The position numbers and the translations under genes were made by a program. Positions 4,648 to 33,209 of a stretch of 64,000 nucleotides of DNA are shown piece by piece; within the stretch, counting starts at the first letter, position 1, and each line of letters begins with the position of its first letter. The notes under the pieces are model-generated. The model saw only the letters and a program-made list of their open reading frames with translations. It was not told the DNA's origin and ran no database searches. Location: IMG/VR virus record IMGVR_UViG_3300024999_000045, positions 32,001 through 96,000 of that record. One strand, given 5' to 3'. The stretch is from a virus.

Positions 4648-5730
4648 ATGTCTAAAGAAGTTAAAATAATTTATTGTTATGATGAATTAGGTAATGCTAT
4701 ACATTATTTAAAAGTGATAAAAGGTAAAAAATATTTTTGTATAGATTGTGGTTCGGAATTAATATGTAAACATGGAACAAAAAAAATAAAACATTTATCG
4801 CATAAAAATACCGAAGAGTGTGGAGGAACAGGTGAATCAATATTTCATAAACATTGGAAAGAAAATTTATTTAAAGCAGGGATGTTTATAGATATTGCTA
4901 TTAGAATGAATAAGCCAGAAAATATAGAAATATTAGAGGTTTTAAATGAGGTTTCATTAAATAAAAGATATAATAAAGAGTGGGATATAGAAATAATTGT
5001 AGATGTATTACTTATTACAAATAAAGGTGATATTGTTGTTGAAATCAATTATAAAAATCCTAAAGATTGGATTAAACTAAAGCCATATTATAATGAATTA
5101 AATTTGTTGAGAATATATGAAGTTAAAGTAGATAAAAATATAAATACAAAGTTGGAATGGTTTAGTTTTGAAACAGAAGAAATAAAAAAAATAGAAGATC
5201 AAAAAGAAATAATAGAATATGAAAAACAAAAAGAAAAAGATAGAATAAAAGAAATAAAAATAGCGGAATATGCAGAGAAACGTGCAGAGATTAGAAAAAA
5301 AACAAAGATAGAAAAAAATCTAGAAAAAGAAAGAATTAAAAATGAATTATTATTAGAAAAAGAAAAAATCATTAAAGAGGAACGTGAAAAGATAAGAGAA
5401 ATGTTAAAAAATGGAACAGCAAAAAAATATAAAATATTTTTTAATTATAAAATTGATTTGCGAAAAATTGATGATAATTATTGTATGTTGCATTGTTTAT
5501 CAGAAATAAAGCCATCACAATATAAAAAAATAAAATTAAAGTTTAGCATTGATAAATTTAGTTATAAAATATTATATGAAAATTTTAATACATCTTATGG
5601 AATTAAATGCTGTGATGTTATTGTAAAAAACACACTTACAGAAGATAATTTTCATGAAGTTCTTGCCTTTGGTGTTAAATGTGATGCAATATATAATAAA
5701 CCTTTATATATACAATTGTGTAATATTTAA
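4648..5730 (+). CDS. CoiA-like zinc finger/nuclease-fold protein
   Basis: KYFCIDCGSELICKHGTKKIKHLSH...CGGTGESIFHKHWK matches the CoiA N-terminus; later VDVLL...VVEINY is PD-(D/E)xK-like; GGAGG RBS before ATG 4648. Confidence 0.65.
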   Translation: MSKEVKIIYCYDELGNAIHYLKVIKGKKYFCIDCGSELICKHGTKKIKHLSHKNTEECGGTGESIFHKHWKENLFKAGMFIDIAIRMNKPENIEILEVLNEVSLNKRYNKEWDIEIIVDVLLITNKGDIVVEINYKNPKDWIKLKPYYNELNLLRIYEVKVDKNINTKLEWFSFETEEIKKIEDQKEIIEYEKQKEKDRIKEIKIAEYAEKRAEIRKKTKIEKNLEKERIKNELLLEKEKIIKEEREKIREMLKNGTAKKYKIFFNYKIDLRKIDDNYCMLHCLSEIKPSQYKKIKLKFSIDKFSYKILYENFNTSYGIKCCDVIVKNTLTEDNFHEVLAFGVKCDAIYNKPLYIQLCNI

Positions 5731-13236: not shown

Positions 13237-13707
13237 GTGATTAAATTGAAAACAATAGATAAAGGAAAACAAAAAGACTGGCTTGAATTATGTGATTATG
13301 TACACAAAGAGATATTAGAGTATGAAGAAGATATGAAATTCCCTAAAAAATTAGCATTAAGATTAAAAGGGTTGTCTTCAGGACAATTTCTAGCAAATAA
13401 TACTTTGAAACCACAAGCAAATTATGAATATAAAACTATCCTTTATACTTTTAAAATATACAAAACTGAAATACTTCAGGCAGTGCAAAGAAAATGCTCT
13501 GACTTCAAAAGTGAAGAGCATAAATGGAATTATGTAATGGCTATAGTTGAGAATAAAATAAATGATGTAGTTATTATGTTAAAAAAGAATAAAAAATCTA
13601 TGCAAAAAACAGAAAATATAGATACTTCTAATCATTTTAATAATAGTGCAGAATATAAAAAGAAAACTATAGAAAAGAAAAATTCAACATTAAATAAACT
13701 GTGGTAG
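13237..13707 (+). CDS. hypothetical replication-block protein
   Basis: ORF track; overlaps the helicase start. Confidence 0.65.
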   Translation: MIKLKTIDKGKQKDWLELCDYVHKEILEYEEDMKFPKKLALRLKGLSSGQFLANNTLKPQANYEYKTILYTFKIYKTEILQAVQRKCSDFKSEEHKWNYVMAIVENKINDVVIMLKKNKKSMQKTENIDTSNHFNNSAEYKKKTIEKKNSTLNKLW

Positions 13708-15209
13708 GTGATACTTTGGCAAAGAAAAATGATAAACTATCCGCTTTTGAAGAGGAGTTATTAAAGGGTATAAAAAAAGTTAAAGAATTTAAACTATCTT
13801 GCGAGGCTAATATAGTTTCTATTTTATACAAAAATCCCGACTTATATTATGATTATGAAAGTATCACAATAAAAAACTTTTCTTATAATGAGTGGAAGGT
13901 ATATTTTCAAATAGGTTATGACATTATTGTAAAAGAAAATAAAAAATCACTAGATGAGATTACGGTGGGTTTATATTTAGAAAAGCACTCTAAATTAAAA
14001 GAAAAATATACTGAATATGGTGGATTTGACACTATAGAAAAAGCCAAAGAATATGTAAAAGAAAAAAACATAATTGGATATGTTAATGAACTTCATAAGT
14101 GGAATACTGTTTTAGAATTGTTAAATAAAAAATTCCCAGTTGTAGATAGAATAAAAGAATTTGTTGATATGTCTTTAGAAGAAATGTATAACGAATATGA
14201 AGCTATTTTAAATCATGTTTTCATAAATGCAGAGAGTGATGACGCTTGTTATGATATAGCAGATAATATATATGAATTAATTGATGAATTAAATGAAGGC
14301 TCTGCAATCGGTATGCCATTACATAATGCCCCACTTCTGTCTAAAGAAATTGGTGGAGATTTAGTAGGAAATATTACTTTAGTTGGTGGACTAAGTGGTT
14401 CTGGAAAAAGCAGCATGGTTAGAACAACAAAAATACCTAGTGTTATTGAATTTGGTGAAAAATTAGTCATTATGATCAATGAAGAAGGTTTAAAAAAATG
14501 GCAACGTGAACTAATTGTTTGGGTTTCAAACAATATTTTTAAAGAAGACCTTCAGAAATATATTGTAAGGGACGGAAAATACAGTAAAGAAACTAAGGAT
14601 TTATTACTAAAATGTGCAGAATGGATTAAAAGTAATAGTGGATTAATAAAAGTAATTCCATTTAAAAAATATTCAACTAACAAAGCCATAAAAGTGATTA
14701 AAAAATATTCAAGTATTGGTGTTAAATATTTTGTATTAGATACATTCAAAGCTGATTCAAAAAGTAGTAATAACGATGCATTTTGGATTAATATGCAACA
14801 AAGTATGGTTGATATATACGACACTATAAAACCAGACCAAAAAAATGTACATATCACAATTACATTTCAACTTAGTAAAAGTAGTTCTAAACAAAGATAT
14901 TATACACAAGAAAATGTTGGTATGGCTAAAAATATGATTGATGTAGCTTCAACTTGTATAATGATTAGACAATTGTTTGATGATGAGTTTGAAGGTGAGA
15001 AAAAAGAATTAAAAGTATATAGGTTAGAAGGTAAAAATAATAAAACTAAAATACCAGTAAAATTAACTAAAAACAAGCATTATCAAGTAATTTTTATTGT
15101 AAAAAATAGAGAAGGTGCTAGTAATGATTATCAAATAGTAGTTGAACATGATTTAAGTAGAAATACTTATAAAGAAATAGGAATTACGACTGTACCAGTA
15201 GATTTTTAA
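13701..15209 (+). CDS. dnaB: replicative DNA helicase (DnaB-like)
   Basis: Walker A GGLSGSGKS, Walker B FVLDTFK, ITFQLS, IVKNREG. Confidence 0.85.
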   Translation: MVGDTLAKKNDKLSAFEEELLKGIKKVKEFKLSCEANIVSILYKNPDLYYDYESITIKNFSYNEWKVYFQIGYDIIVKENKKSLDEITVGLYLEKHSKLKEKYTEYGGFDTIEKAKEYVKEKNIIGYVNELHKWNTVLELLNKKFPVVDRIKEFVDMSLEEMYNEYEAILNHVFINAESDDACYDIADNIYELIDELNEGSAIGMPLHNAPLLSKEIGGDLVGNITLVGGLSGSGKSSMVRTTKIPSVIEFGEKLVIMINEEGLKKWQRELIVWVSNNIFKEDLQKYIVRDGKYSKETKDLLLKCAEWIKSNSGLIKVIPFKKYSTNKAIKVIKKYSSIGVKYFVLDTFKADSKSSNNDAFWINMQQSMVDIYDTIKPDQKNVHITITFQLSKSSSKQRYYTQENVGMAKNMIDVASTCIMIRQLFDDEFEGEKKELKVYRLEGKNNKTKIPVKLTKNKHYQVIFIVKNREGASNDYQIVVEHDLSRNTYKEIGITTVPVDF

Positions 15210-31210: not shown

Positions 31211-31843
31211 ATGGAATTAAGTATAACTAGAGCATTATCAGAATTAAAATTATTAAATGATAGGATTTTAAGAAAAGCATCTGAAGGTGTATATATTGCT
31301 GGGGCTAAAAAAAGTTCTAAAAAAATCAACAATATATATAGTAGAGAGGAATTTAATGAAAAGGTTAAATCAGATTATCAAAGTATAACAGCTTTAATTG
31401 AGAGAAGAAAAAGAATTAAATCAGCAATAGTTAGTTCAAATTCACAAACAAAAATTACTATAAGCAATAAAGAAATGACAGTTGCAGAAGCAATAGAAAG
31501 AAAAGATTCAATAGAATATGACAAATGTTTATTAAGAGAAATGAGCAATCAATTTAATGCAGTTTTATCAAACATTAGTCGTCAAAATGAAATGGTTAAT
31601 GCTAATTTAGAAAATCTATTAAACACTTCTTTTGGTAAAGAAAGAACTGGCAAGGTTGATGAAAGTGAAATTTTAGCAATAAGTAAACCTTATTTAGAAC
31701 AAAACGAGTGGGAAGTTATTGATGTATTAGCATTAAAAACTAAGATTGAAGATTTAAAAACTAGTATTGAAGATTTTGAATCAGAAATCGACTTCACATT
31801 AAGTGAAAGCAACGCAATTACTAAAATTACTATAGAAGACTAG
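31211..31843 (+). CDS. coiled-coil protein resembling the DIP1984-like (DUF6847) family
   Basis: MELSITRALSELKLLNDRI ... MTVAEAIERK ... EIDFTLSESNAITKI pattern; family name recalled from memory, not verified. Confidence 0.6.
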   Translation: MELSITRALSELKLLNDRILRKASEGVYIAGAKKSSKKINNIYSREEFNEKVKSDYQSITALIERRKRIKSAIVSSNSQTKITISNKEMTVAEAIERKDSIEYDKCLLREMSNQFNAVLSNISRQNEMVNANLENLLNTSFGKERTGKVDESEILAISKPYLEQNEWEVIDVLALKTKIEDLKTSIEDFESEIDFTLSESNAITKITIED

Positions 31844-31863
31844 TATTAAAAATCAAATATAAT

Positions 31864-32176
31864 ATTGTGGCTATTCGAAAACTATAAACTTAAATTCCCT
31901 TACACATTTGTGGGATAACAAATGTATACAAGAACAATTAGGACGTTACCTAATTAAAATCAAATGATGATTTTGATATTATAAAAGGATGCCCTCTGTG
32001 GCACAAAATTATAAAGATTAAAGTTTAGGTTTTAAAGTTCAAGTATGAAGATTTAAAGTTCTTTTTGATTAAGAATTAAGTTTTAAATATAAAATTTCGA
32101 TAAAATCCGAGATTAAAGGTTTGTCAGTGCTGATTTGATTGGCTCTTAGTTATCCTCTCGGCTGAATAGTCACAAT
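31864..32176 (+). ncRNA. candidate ~310 nt structured RNA with phased heptamer repeats
   Basis: 13 bp closing stem 31864-31876/32164-32176 (one G-U), five internal stems, 7-nt periodic tract 32012-32097; no credible ORF. Confidence 0.75.
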
Positions 32177-32188
32177 TTTTATATACAT

Positions 32189-32265
32189 CTCCGTATAGCC
32201 AAACTGGTTTAAGGCAAAAGGCTGCAACCCTTTGATTGTGGGTTCGAGTCCCTCTACGGAGTCCA
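32189..32265 (+). tRNA. tRNA-Cys (GCA)
   Basis: Acceptor CTCCGTA/TACGGAG, D arm GCC/GGC, anticodon stem AAAGG/CCTTT with loop CTGCAAC, T loop TTCGAGT, discriminator T, encoded CCA. Confidence 0.93.
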
Positions 32266-32290
32266 ATAAATACACACAAAGGAGACTAAA

Positions 32291-32455
32291 ATGGATTATA
32301 AAAATTGTAAAGAATTTAAAGAAGATGAATGGGGAGAATGTAAACATAAATTTCACCCTGAACACGATTGCAAAGATAATTGTTTTAGATATCCTACTGA
32401 GAAATTCGAAGAGTTTTACAATGAATATATAAATAATACAGAGAATGATAATTAG
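32291..32455 (+). CDS. small Cys/His-rich protein (54 aa)
   Basis: AAGGAG RBS; absent from the ORF track. Confidence 0.6.
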   Translation: MDYKNCKEFKEDEWGECKHKFHPEHDCKDNCFRYPTEKFEEFYNEYINNTENDN

Positions 32456-32921: not shown

Positions 32922-32945
32922 AATAAAAGGTAAGATTTATTTAAA

Positions 32946-33155
32946 TGTGGGATGGCGGAATGTAAAAACGCGCTTAAGACAATAATGCGTTGTGAAGTAA
33001 TGGTTCAGTTGATGAAAGCCCAGTATAGCCAAGTGGCAAGGCATACCTCTGAGTAAGAACGTAGGTTCAAATCCTACTATTGGTGAACGTACGGACGGTA
33101 CGTGTAGTCAAAGCCATAGTAACAACAACTGAGGGTTCAAATCCCTCTCCCACAT
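32946..33155 (+). ncRNA. tRNA-like RNA with a second tRNA-like module nested inside
   Basis: Outer acceptor TGTGGGA/TCCCACA, Leu/Ser-type D arm, T arm GAGGG-TTCAAAT-CCCTC; inner module 33019-33085 has its own D arm and T arm GTAGG-TTCAAAT-CCTAC. Confidence 0.75.
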
Positions 33156-33209
33156 TTTTAAACCAAATGTGAGTTTTATTTAAAATATAAATATAAAAGG
33201 AGAATTATT

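What the first reader, a model, noticed from the sequence alone, without database searches (positions are those of the whole stretch)
31211..32176. Coiled-coil protein gene paired with a ~310 nt structured RNA carrying phased 7-nt repeats: candidate ribonucleoprotein system
Seen: 20 bp after the stop of the 210-aa gene, ATTGTGGCTATTC (31864-31876) pairs with GAATAGTCACAAT (32164-32176). Inside are hairpins ACATTTGT/ACAAATGT (31904-31925), AATTAGG/CCTAATT (31936-31955), ATCAAA/TTTGAT (31959-31977), TGCC/GGCA (31990-32003) and CCGAGA/TCTCGG (32107-32161). Between them lies a tract with no obvious pairing and strict 7-nt phasing: TAAAGAT TAAAGTT TAGGTTT TAAAGTT CAAGTAT GAAGATT TAAAGTT (32012-32060), then TAAGAAT TAAGTTT TAAATAT AAAATTT (32070-32097). 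tRNA-Cys starts 12 nt after the closing stem, so RNase P cleavage could release the 3' end. The protein resembles the uncharacterised DIP1984-like (DUF6847) family, from memory. Inference: the protein oligomerises on the repeats, one subunit per heptamer, forming an RNP scaffold or filament, or a protein-RNA toxin-antitoxin or anti-defence pair reminiscent of type III TA repeats. I know no named RNA family matching this.
Basis: partly seen in the sequence, partly recalled or inferred. Interest (0 to 1): 0.85.

Follow-up and report, generated by a model that had tools for sequence, protein, structure and literature searches.

The report
Knotted heptad-repeat RNA with partner protein
Right behind a small helical-protein gene, this groundwater phage encodes a real, multiply knotted 313-base RNA with about eleven evenly spaced 7-base units; the same gene-plus-RNA pair recurs in hundreds of phages (T5 included) and in some Bacillus-type chromosomes, matches no catalogued RNA family, and its job is unknown.

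Summary
Window 31864-32176 (+) is a 313-nt structured RNA lying 20 nt after the 210-aa gene and 12 nt before tRNA-Cys.

- **Co-occurrence:** a homologous element lies on the same strand, a median of 12 nt after the homologous gene, in about 155 of about 160 related loci.
- **Structure:** on 67 non-redundant copies, 29 base pairs are 91% paired, against 31-43% when partners are slid. They show massive compensatory change, wobble pairs that fit only the + strand, and two pseudoknots.
- **Repeat tract:** it is a conserved array of U-Y-A triplets spaced exactly 7 nt apart (about 7, then 4).
- **Protein:** it belongs to phrog_1491 (3,382 clusters) and is only a remote structural relative of DIP1984.
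- **Distribution:** T5 has the pair (T5.085), unannotated. In the B. pumilus and Lysinibacillus loci examined it is a stand-alone cassette, with a terminator right after the RNA in the B. pumilus copies.
- **Catalogues:** no Rfam family matched and I found no paper.

Most likely this is an undescribed protein-RNA particle. Binding of the protein to the heptads is inferred, not shown. This scan has noted the same pair before on other DNA. Its claim of a RAGATH-27 match was not reproduced here.

The parts
31211..31843 (+). Gene for the 210-aa helical partner protein (phrog_1491 family; T5.085 homolog)
   Evidence: ORF. PHROG match E 3.6e-64 over the full length. AF2 model with pLDDT 89, an elongated helical bundle with small beta elements. 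3,382 clusters at 50% identity; the 150 best listed are 188-231 aa.
31864..32176 (+). The whole 313-nt structured non-coding RNA
   Evidence: nhmmer finds homologs directly downstream of the homologous gene in about all related loci. Covariation. Fold z -4.0.
31864..31876 (+). P1 closing stem, 5' arm
   Evidence: 13 pairs, 98.5% paired over 67 sequences, 3-6 pair types at every position. The set was chosen for P1 pairing. A set chosen by nhmmer coverage only gave 85-100%.
32164..32176 (+). P1 closing stem, 3' arm
   Evidence: U.G is the commonest pair at one position (38 of 67), which would be a C.A mismatch on the opposite strand.
31876..31880 (+). Near-invariant CGAAA junction after P1
   Evidence: G16, A17 and A18 are invariant in alignment A3.
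31880..31884 (+). P2, 5' strand (AACUA); pairs with 32147-32151
   Evidence: Alignment columns 22-26/583-587: 79% paired, all 5 pairs change on both sides. In the window the register is shifted by one base, giving 5 perfect pairs.
32147..32151 (+). P2, 3' strand (UAGUU)
31891..31896 (+). P3, 5' strand (UAAAUU); pairs with 32132-32137
   Evidence: Six pairs, 77-82% paired, 4-6 pair types each.
32132..32137 (+). P3, 3' strand (GAUUUG)
31897..31925 (+). 5' H-type pseudoknot: S1 CCC 31897-99 with GGG 31912-14; S2 31904-11 with 31918-25
   Evidence: The same topology, with unrelated S2 sequences, is found in 65 of 67 elements against 16% of shuffled segments.
31936..32003 (+). Variable region with three local hairpins, not conserved in sequence; in other phages it holds extra hairpins or a whole tRNA
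   Evidence: Alignment A3 columns 100-300. Embedded tRNAs in L065 and L084.
32011..32062 (+). Heptad array I: U at 32018/25/32/39/46/53/60, with A two bases later. Consensus U-Y-A-R-n-n-n, preceded by an AAAG unit.
   Evidence: The U and A columns are 93-100% conserved at exact 7-nt spacing, almost without indels in 67 sequences. The modal run is 7.
32069..32099 (+). Heptad array II: U at 32069/76/83/90/97, shifted by 2 nt from array I across a CUU-plus-variable spacer
   Evidence: Column conservation.
32097..32108 (+). Near-invariant UCGAUAAAAUCC block
   Evidence: Columns 510-521 are 76-100% conserved, apart from one variable base.
32107..32111 (+). Pseudoknot helix, 5' strand (CCGAG); pairs with 32157-32161 and crosses P2 and P3
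   Evidence: 97.9% paired; 4 of 5 pairs change on both sides.
32157..32161 (+). Pseudoknot helix, 3' strand (CUCGG), followed by the conserved CUG
32189..32265 (+). tRNA-Cys(GCA), 12 nt after P1; probably defines the RNA's 3' end through RNase P cleavage (inferred)
   Evidence: ARAGORN and Rfam, 57 bits. It is one of only two tRNAs in the 130-kb contig. In 7 of 57 viral loci a tRNA starts within 20 nt of P1.

Best explanation
This is an autonomous two-part module. The 210-aa helical protein gene and the 313-nt RNA are made as one transcript. The gap between them is too short for a promoter of its own.

The RNA's 3' end is set here by processing of the abutting tRNA-Cys. In the bacterial copies it is set by an intrinsic terminator.

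The RNA folds into a closed, doubly pseudoknotted scaffold: P1, P2, P3, a crossing CCGAG/CUCGG helix and a 5' H-type pseudoknot. This scaffold presents two rows of U-Y-A triplets at exact 7-nt spacing, about 7 and then 4.

I think the most likely mechanism is that several copies of the partner protein dock side by side on these triplets, one per heptad. Docking would use the protein's conserved polar and basic tip, the KSAIVxSNA and AEAIERKxS motifs. The result would be a ribonucleoprotein particle of fixed size.

Its cellular job is not known. The setting is the tRNA clusters of large lytic phages, plus stand-alone cassettes in some Bacillales chromosomes. That points to RNA, tRNA or translation biology rather than virion structure.

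Shown: the RNA, its fold, its strand, the array, and the obligate gene-RNA linkage.
Inferred: co-transcription, RNase P release, binding of the protein to the array, and stoichiometry.
For: Linkage:
- The element lies on the same strand directly after the gene in all but 3 of about 160 loci from viral and bacterial collections, at protein identities down to 35%.
- The gap from stop codon to P1 has a median of 12 nt.
- All 11 elements found by RNA-first pattern scans have the gene directly upstream.
- No other neighbouring gene is conserved; the next-commonest neighbour occurs in 26 of 112 loci.

Fold:
- 91.3% of cells are paired, against 31-43% with slid partners.
- The covariation score is 0.815, against 0.10-0.15 slid and 0.23 shuffled, with 0 of 500 shuffles reaching it.
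- The 5' pseudoknot is present in 65 of 67 elements.

Strand: U.G wobble pairs dominate at some P1 positions, which fits only the + strand.

Transcript end:
- A terminator-like hairpin lies within 120 nt after P1 in 39 of 81 loci; in the bacterial copies it starts 2-33 nt after P1.
- tRNAs lie on the same strand within 150 nt in 16 of 57 viral loci.

Array:
- U and A are 93-100% conserved at 7-nt spacing, while the spacer bases vary freely.
- In GC-rich members only U-C-A persists.
- This is the pattern expected of a repeated protein-contact triplet, as in HutP (UAG plus 4 nt) and TRAP (own knowledge).

Protein:
- The length is nearly constant (188-231 aa among the 150 best clusters) with no fused forms among them.
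- The invariant polar residues are K70, S76, N77, K98 and S100.

Leaders: two or more phased UYAR motifs lie upstream of the gene's own start codon in 8.5% of loci against 2.0% of control genes, p = 5e-4. This hints that the protein reads this motif. The window's own leader shows no such array.
Against: - There is no direct evidence that the protein binds the RNA.
- No RNA-binding domain is recognised.
- The C-terminal half of the protein is acidic.
- Thermodynamic folding does not predict the array to be clearly less paired than the rest: unpaired probability 0.43 against 0.38 overall, and 0.32 against 0.38 in the window.
- Perfect AAAGTTC arrays occur in intergenic regions of three GC-rich phage fragments that show no copy of the protein in the DNA held. 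A different reader of the motif is therefore possible.
- In locus L008 the gene is split by a frameshift while the RNA is intact.
Confidence: 0.55

Rival explanations
1. Sponge or decoy. The UYA array is read by a host single-strand RNA-binding factor rather than by the neighbouring protein. The RNA would titrate that factor during infection, as CsrB titrates CsrA. The neighbouring protein would act as a folding, stabilising or processing helper.
For: - Identical heptad arrays occur in unrelated GC-rich phage fragments with no copy of the protein in the DNA held.
- The protein has no recognised RNA-binding domain.
- In L008 the RNA is intact while the gene is frameshifted.
Against: - The gene-RNA linkage is near-absolute across hosts from Pseudomonadota (E. 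coli, Pseudomonas, Vibrio) to Bacillota (Bacillus, Clostridium). That is hard to explain by one host factor.
- This phage has no other array that could be a competing target.
- The GC-rich fragments are only 14-29% complete.
Confidence: 0.17
2. RNA-only assembly of the GOLLD/ROOL kind. The knotted RNA multimerises by itself into a cage or lattice, the heptads form RNA-RNA or tertiary contacts, and the protein is accessory.
For: - The genomic habit matches that reported for GOLLD and ROOL: phage-borne, abutting tRNAs, sometimes with a tRNA embedded (10.1101/2024.12.08.627333 for the cages; PMC5737381).
- The fold is ornate, with several pseudoknots.
Against: - GOLLD and ROOL have no obligate neighbouring protein gene.
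- No covariation was found between array positions and any other column.
- Neither family matches.
Confidence: 0.1
3. Cis-acting 3' untranslated region. The structure only stabilises or autoregulates the mRNA of the upstream gene, and no free RNA or particle exists.
For: - The RNA is co-transcribed, with a 12-nt median gap.
- Phased motifs are modestly enriched in the gene's own leader.
Against: - 313 nt with two pseudoknots and a fixed repeat array is far more than mRNA 3' protection needs.
- An abutting or embedded tRNA implies processing into a separate RNA.
- The window's own leader has no array.
Confidence: 0.08
4. Toxin-antitoxin or defence/anti-defence pair, reminiscent of type III systems, in which the repeat RNA neutralises a toxic protein.
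For: - It is a two-part cassette found both in phages and as an isolated, patchily distributed chromosomal locus: 16 of 91 Bacillaceae species, single copy in the three genomes checked.
- The RNA carries repeats.
Against: - The RNA lies downstream of the gene, not upstream.
- The unit is 7 nt, not about 36 nt, and sits inside a large scaffold.
- No nuclease fold was found, and there is no significant PADLOC match.
- Most carriers are large lytic phages.
Confidence: 0.07
5. DNA-level element: iterons of an origin, a packaging site or a partition site, or a miniature mobile element with inverted ends.
For: - Heptad iterons are known on DNA, for example the omega-protein sites of pSM19035 (own knowledge).
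- The ends are an inverted repeat.
Against: - The wobble pairs fit only one strand.
- Pseudoknots and long-range compensatory changes are present.
- A terminator follows directly after the element.
- There is a single copy per genome.
- It occurs inside bacterial chromosomes between housekeeping genes.
Confidence: 0.02

Closest known systems
HutP bound to the hut leader RNA of Bacillus subtilis
   Same: The RNA target is a row of conserved triplets (UAG) separated by 4 variable bases, so the period is 7 nt, with one triplet per protein subunit (own knowledge). Here the triplet is U-Y-A with 4 variable bases.
   Different: HutP is a small alpha/beta hexamer acting on a terminator in a leader. 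No HutP family match was found. Here there are about 11 triplets inside a 313-nt knotted scaffold that lies after the gene, not in a leader. Binding is not shown.
TRAP and the trp leader (11 G/UAG repeats on an 11-subunit ring)
   Same: A fixed number of phased triplets matches a fixed number of subunits. The count here is also about 11.
   Different: TRAP spacers are 2-3 nt and the protein is a beta-sheet ring. No family match was found. The role of TRAP is attenuation.
GOLLD and ROOL large phage-associated RNAs
   Same: These are ornate RNAs without a known job, carried by phages and prophages, next to tRNA genes, sometimes with a tRNA inside (PMC5737381; 10.1101/2024.12.08.627333). The habit is the same here.
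   Different: They are 580-800 nt, have no dedicated protein gene and no heptad array. Neither Rfam model matches.
Ro60 (Rsr) with Y RNA (YrlA) modules of bacteria and phages
   Same: A protein gene sits with an adjacent dedicated non-coding RNA gene, and tRNA-like parts are nearby (own knowledge).
   Different: The protein fold (Ro60 is a HEAT-repeat ring) and the RNA are unrelated. YrlA gave only sub-threshold matches at tRNAs in two loci.
DIP1984 / DUF6847 proteins (PDB 3kdq, function unknown)
   Same: It is the best structural match of the partner protein: VIA Z 11.3 over 151 of 152 residues, Foldseek probability 1.0. Weak sequence signals exist.
   Different: Scores are far below the family cut-offs. 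DUF6847 proteins are about 150-160 aa. Twelve DUF6847 loci have no heptad RNA downstream and are not hit by this family's profile.
RAGATH-27 (Rfam RF03100), named by earlier notes of this scan as covering the first 86 nt
   Same: Earlier notes report a match on other genomes. I could not see it.
   Different: There is no match at E up to 10 in window 31700-32400. There is none in 44 related loci at gathering score or at E up to 0.1-1.

Membership tests
phrog_1491 (phage protein family, labelled 'tail fiber protein') | Full-length match to the family profile | tested here: met
   E 3.6e-64, residues 2-209 on profile positions 4-210 of 211. The 'tail fiber' label is not supported by context: nucleotide-metabolism and tRNA regions, and bacterial housekeeping loci.
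DUF6847 / DIP1984 family (PF20935, NF038048) | Score above the curated cut-off | tested here: not met
   Pfam 14.1 bits against a cut-off of 27. NCBIfam 16.7 bits against a cut-off of 70.
DUF6847 / DIP1984 family (PF20935, NF038048) | Shared fold with the solved member 3kdq | tested here: met
   VIA Z 11.3, 151 residues aligned, next row 7.9. Foldseek E 0.015, probability 1.0. The rmsd of 7.9 A shows it is remote.
Any Rfam 15 family, including GOLLD, ROOL, 6S, tmRNA and RAGATH-27 | Covariance-model match at the gathering score, or any match at E up to 10 | tested here: not met
   Only tRNAs reach threshold in the window. In 31700-32400 at E up to 10 there are only chance-level rows. Nothing falls on the element in 44 related loci.
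Type III toxin-antitoxin (ToxIN, CptIN, TenpIN) | Repeat RNA gene upstream of the toxin gene, separated from it by a terminator | tested here: not met
   The RNA lies 20 nt downstream of the gene. The terminator follows the RNA.
Type III toxin-antitoxin (ToxIN, CptIN, TenpIN) | Tandem units of about 34-40 nt, cut by the toxin into single units | tested here: not met
   The units are 7 nt and embedded in a non-repetitive scaffold. Cleavage cannot be tested with these tools.
Type III toxin-antitoxin (ToxIN, CptIN, TenpIN) | Toxin with a ToxN/AbiE-type endoribonuclease fold | tested here: inconclusive
   No such family appears in the Pfam or PADLOC scans or among the fold matches. The model is an all-helical bundle.
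HutP or TRAP RNA-binding attenuation proteins | Membership of the HutP or TrpBP protein family | tested here: not met
   Neither family appears among the Pfam matches at E up to 1. The likeness lies in the layout of the RNA target only.
Miniature inverted-repeat mobile element | Several copies per genome | tested here: not met
   There is one copy in the 130-kb contig and one per bacterial genome.

The most novel reading that the evidence does not exclude
A previously undescribed class of ribonucleoprotein. A doubly pseudoknotted RNA 'ruler' holds about eleven copies of a helical protein in a fixed 7-nt register. The particle is built in cis from a single transcript. It is carried by large tRNA-bearing phages, from T5 to Clostridium and Bacillus phages, and is retained as a chromosomal cassette in some Bacillales. 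It would act on tRNA or translation during infection.
Probability: 0.4. Interest if true: 0.9.

Novelty: categorically new. Interest (0 to 1): 0.8.

Why it matters
- **A missing annotation:** the pair occurs in 739 deposited phage genomes, including the model phage T5 and many therapy-candidate phages of Salmonella, E. coli, Klebsiella and Pseudomonas. The gene is labelled hypothetical or, wrongly, 'tail fiber', and the RNA is not annotated at all.
- **Rarity:** large conserved bacterial and phage RNAs with a dedicated protein are rare, and each one understood so far opened a field.
- **A testable design:** the fixed array of triplets gives a clear hypothesis about how a protein oligomer is measured out on RNA.
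- **Ready systems:** T5 with E. coli, and B. pumilus or B. licheniformis, allow genetics and biochemistry at once.
- **A link to an open question:** it also touches on why large phages carry tRNA clusters and the odd RNAs that sit among them.

Tried and rejected
- **Rfam:** nothing falls on the element in the window or in 44 related loci. The RAGATH-27 match reported by earlier notes was not reproduced.
- **Literature:** searches on T5.085/T5p083/ORF080, T5 stable RNAs, heptamer-repeat RNAs, DUF6847/DIP1984/phrog_1491, and T5 or PAK_P3 transcriptomes found no paper on this pair.
- **Phage K long RNAs next to tRNAs (PMC9241854):** the region of the long RNA next to tRNA-Met (13595-14229) matches neither the RNA profile nor the protein profile; the second long-RNA region was not fetched.
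- **PAK_P3 small RNAs:** they are about 100 nt and were not pursued.
- **Sequencing runs:** no RNA holder is listed; only groundwater and sediment DNA runs hold the stretch.
- **PADLOC:** only chance-level rows.
- **DUF6847 genes in 11 Bacillota genomes:** no heptad array or element is nearby.
- **RNA-first pattern scans of viral contigs:** most hits were chance matches. The 11 true elements all had the gene.
- **Other arrays in this phage as possible mRNA targets:** none.
- **Heptads in the gene's own leader:** a weak enrichment across loci, absent from this window.
- **Unpaired probability of the array from partition-function folding:** not informative.
- **Promoter and terminator scans of the window:** uninformative in 26% GC DNA.
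- **A small hairpin between the two arrays:** not supported by my column counts.
- **The only stronger 7-nt periodic tract in the window (about 5141-5290):** it is Lys/Glu-rich coding sequence.
Full report
**Setting.** The window is part of a 130-kb, 26.5% GC virus contig estimated to be 69% complete. It is held in groundwater and sediment DNA runs. Around the finding lie a ribonucleotide reductase, a dUTPase, a SLOG-family protein and many small ORFs without family. This is an early or nucleotide-metabolism region, not a virion module.

- The 210-aa ORF ends at 31843.
- A 13-bp stem (31864-76 with 32164-76) closes a 313-nt stretch.
- tRNA-Cys starts 12 nt later.
- The stretch folds better than all 100 shuffles, z = -4.0.
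- The 7-nt periodicity of 32005-32100 has z = 5.2, with 0 of 5000 shuffles reaching it.
- It is the only run of four or more phased UYAR motifs in the entire contig.
- The element is single-copy, so it is not a repeat family.

**The gene and the RNA are a fixed pair.**
- The six closest viral loci (57-60% protein identity) all carry a recognisably homologous element after the gene. They show compensatory changes in the closing stem and the same phased tract.
- I then fetched 80 viral and 80 bacterial loci with a protein profile.
- Three rounds of nhmmer found the element on the same strand directly after the gene in all but three of them. This held down to 35% protein identity.
- The gap from stop codon to stem has a median of 12 nt, interquartile range 8-22.
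- No other neighbouring gene is conserved.
- Scans that started from RNA motifs gave mostly chance matches. All 11 true elements they recovered had the gene directly upstream.

**The fold.** I worked on 67 non-redundant elements (alignment A3) and named five helices, 29 pairs in all. The table gives the tool's counts.

| Measure | Named structure | Partners slid 1-3 columns | Shuffled |
|---|---|---|---|
| Cells forming a standard pair | 91.3% | 31-43% | 60.2% |
| Covariation score | 0.815 | 0.10-0.15 | 0.23 |
| Shuffles reaching the observed value | - | - | 0 of 500 |

- The sequences were selected for a paired closing stem, which inflates its percentage. An earlier set, chosen by nhmmer coverage only, still gave 85-100% for that stem.
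- The other helices were not used in the selection.
- Nested helices in window coordinates are P1 31864-76/32164-76, P2 31880-84/32147-51 and P3 31891-96/32132-37.
- CCGAG 32107-11 pairs with CUCGG 32157-61 and crosses P2 and P3, so it forms a pseudoknot.
- A second, H-type pseudoknot lies at 31897-31925. It recurs with unrelated stem sequences in 65 of 67 elements, against 16% of shuffled controls.
- U.G is the commonest pair at one P1 position, and G.U is frequent at another. The structure therefore belongs to the + strand transcript and not to duplex DNA.
- Between the 5' pseudoknot and the array lies a variable region. In this window it holds three local hairpins. In L065 and L084 it holds a complete tRNA.

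**The array.**
- Column statistics show a U and, two bases later, an A. Each is 93-100% conserved and recurs every 7 nt.
- Y sits between them, a purine usually follows, and three bases vary freely.
- In the window the U's of array I are at 32018, 25, 32, 39, 46, 53 and 60.
- After a CUU-plus-variable spacer, which shifts the phase by 2, the U's of array II are at 32069, 76, 83, 90 and 97.
- Array I has almost no indels among the 67 sequences. The modal strict run is seven triplets.
- In GC-rich members only U-C-A survives.
- No column outside the array covaries with it.
- Energy-based folding does not clearly predict the array to be open. The case for a single-stranded display therefore rests on conservation pattern, not on energy.

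**Transcript ends.** The short gap leaves no room for a separate promoter, so co-transcription with the gene is inferred.
- In the bacterial copies a canonical terminator-like hairpin with a U-tract starts 2-33 nt after P1. Within 120 nt one is found in 39 of 81 loci.
- In viral loci tRNAs take that place:
  - 36 of 57 loci have tRNAs within 2.5 kb.
  - All 160 tRNAs found in the surveyed loci lie on the same strand as the module.
  - 16 loci have a tRNA within 150 nt of P1.
  - 7 loci have one within 20 nt of P1.

**The protein.**
- It matches phrog_1491 over its full length.
- A profile search finds 3,382 clusters at 50% identity. The 150 best listed are 188-231 aa, and none is fused to another domain.
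- The AlphaFold model (pLDDT 89) is a long helical bundle with small beta elements.
- Its only outstanding solved relative is 3kdq, the DIP1984-like protein of unknown function: Z 11.3 against 7.9 for the next row, Foldseek probability 1.0.
- Sequence scores are far below the family cut-offs.
- True DUF6847 genes in 11 Bacillota genomes have no such RNA and are not hit by this family's profile.
- Viral structure matches are all uncharacterised phage proteins.
- Conserved polar and basic residues (K70, S76, N77, K98, S100) sit in the KSAIVxSNA and AEAIERKxS motifs. I take this as the likely contact site. That is an inference.

**Distribution.**
- tblastn finds the gene in 739 deposited phage genomes. 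They include T5-like, Felix O1-like, Vibrio, Pseudomonas, Klebsiella, Erwinia jumbo, Lactococcus, Bacillus and Clostridium phages.
- In T5 the gene is T5.085. The 363-nt gap after it holds the element: a 16-bp closing stem, CGAAA, about 12 heptads and GGCUG. It is not annotated, although T5's record lists eight other stable or tRNA-like RNAs.
- In Bacillus phage Kioshi the gene follows an 18-tRNA array. In Clostridium phage D-1873 it follows tRNA-Trp.
- In B. safensis and Lysinibacillus the pair is a stand-alone cassette between housekeeping genes. There is a single copy per genome. It is present in 16 of 91 Bacillaceae species, in two tight groups.

**Interpretation.** The RNA, its fold and its linkage to the gene are as secure as comparative analysis can make them. 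What the pair does is open.
- I favour a particle in which copies of the protein sit on the phased triplets (0.55).
  - The conservation pattern is that of a repeated protein contact.
  - The array length is fixed.
  - The only universally co-inherited partner is this protein.
  - Its own leader sometimes carries the same phased motif: 8.5% against 2.0% of controls, p = 5e-4, though not in this window.
- The rivals are a decoy for a host factor, an RNA-only assembly, a mere 3' UTR, a toxin-antitoxin-like pair and a DNA site. They are weighed in their own sections.
- The DNA reading is effectively excluded.

**Relation to earlier notes of this scan.** The same pair has been reported on other genomes.
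- I confirmed independently the T5 case, the pseudoknots and the fixed linkage.
- I found only weak support for the leader-heptad idea.
- I could not reproduce the RAGATH-27 match on this window or on 44 loci.
- As far as the notes shown tell, the following are additions:
  - the stand-alone chromosomal cassettes with terminators;
  - the absence of the RNA at true DUF6847 genes;
  - the absence of other arrays in this phage.

Noticed in passing
window 32943-33159: A 10-bp inverted repeat (AAATGTGGGA / TCCCACATTT) encloses about 215 nt. The enclosed stretch holds a tRNA-like element at 33019-33085 (Rfam tRNA, 43.7 bits, shortened anticodon arm, not called by ARAGORN) and a second T-arm-like hairpin at 33133-33149. 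The fold z-score is only -1.9. It may be a tRNA-like stable RNA of the kind annotated in T5.
   Followed up: partly
L052 2145-2232, L062 2142-2229, L107 3522-3650, L176 7273-7380, L068 3547-3695, L157 87-144: Other orphan RNA motifs sit next to the module. skipping-rope RNA lies before it in L052 and L062 and after it in L107. drum RNA follows it in Clostridium phage D-1873. RAGATH-36 lies directly after it in L068. A twister-P5 ribozyme lies upstream in L157. The module is part of phage 'RNA islands'.
   Followed up: no
L065 3200-3274; L084 3206-3281: A complete tRNA (Ser in L065, Ile in L084) is embedded in the variable region of the element. L074 and L064 show T-arm-like sequences at the same place.
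   Followed up: partly
L157 3124-3422 and 3450-3780: Two complete elements stand in tandem after one gene, each with its own closing stem.
   Followed up: no
L008 2472-3100 (minus strand): The partner gene is split into ORFs of 126 aa and 75 aa by a frameshift, while the RNA after it is intact and flanked by tRNAs. This is either an assembly error or a decaying gene.
   Followed up: partly
L194 2854-2895 and 7978-8030; L214 881-920; L225 11064, 11337 and 11646: GC-rich phage fragments carry near-perfect AAAGTTC x 3-7 arrays in intergenic regions. One lies directly before a Shine-Dalgarno sequence. No copy of the partner protein is in the DNA held, but the records are only 14-29% complete.
   Followed up: partly
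L117 (B. safensis) and L129 (Lysinibacillus): The chromosomal cassettes lie between housekeeping genes, not in prophages. In L117 the neighbours are an amino-acid permease and a subtilase. In L129 they are an MFS transporter and a tRNA U5-methyltransferase-like gene.
   Followed up: partly
L178 (T5, AY543070 40848-41566): T5 'RNAX', an annotated 719-nt stable RNA of unknown function, abuts tRNA-Arg about 2 kb from the T5.085 module. It is a different RNA.
   Followed up: no
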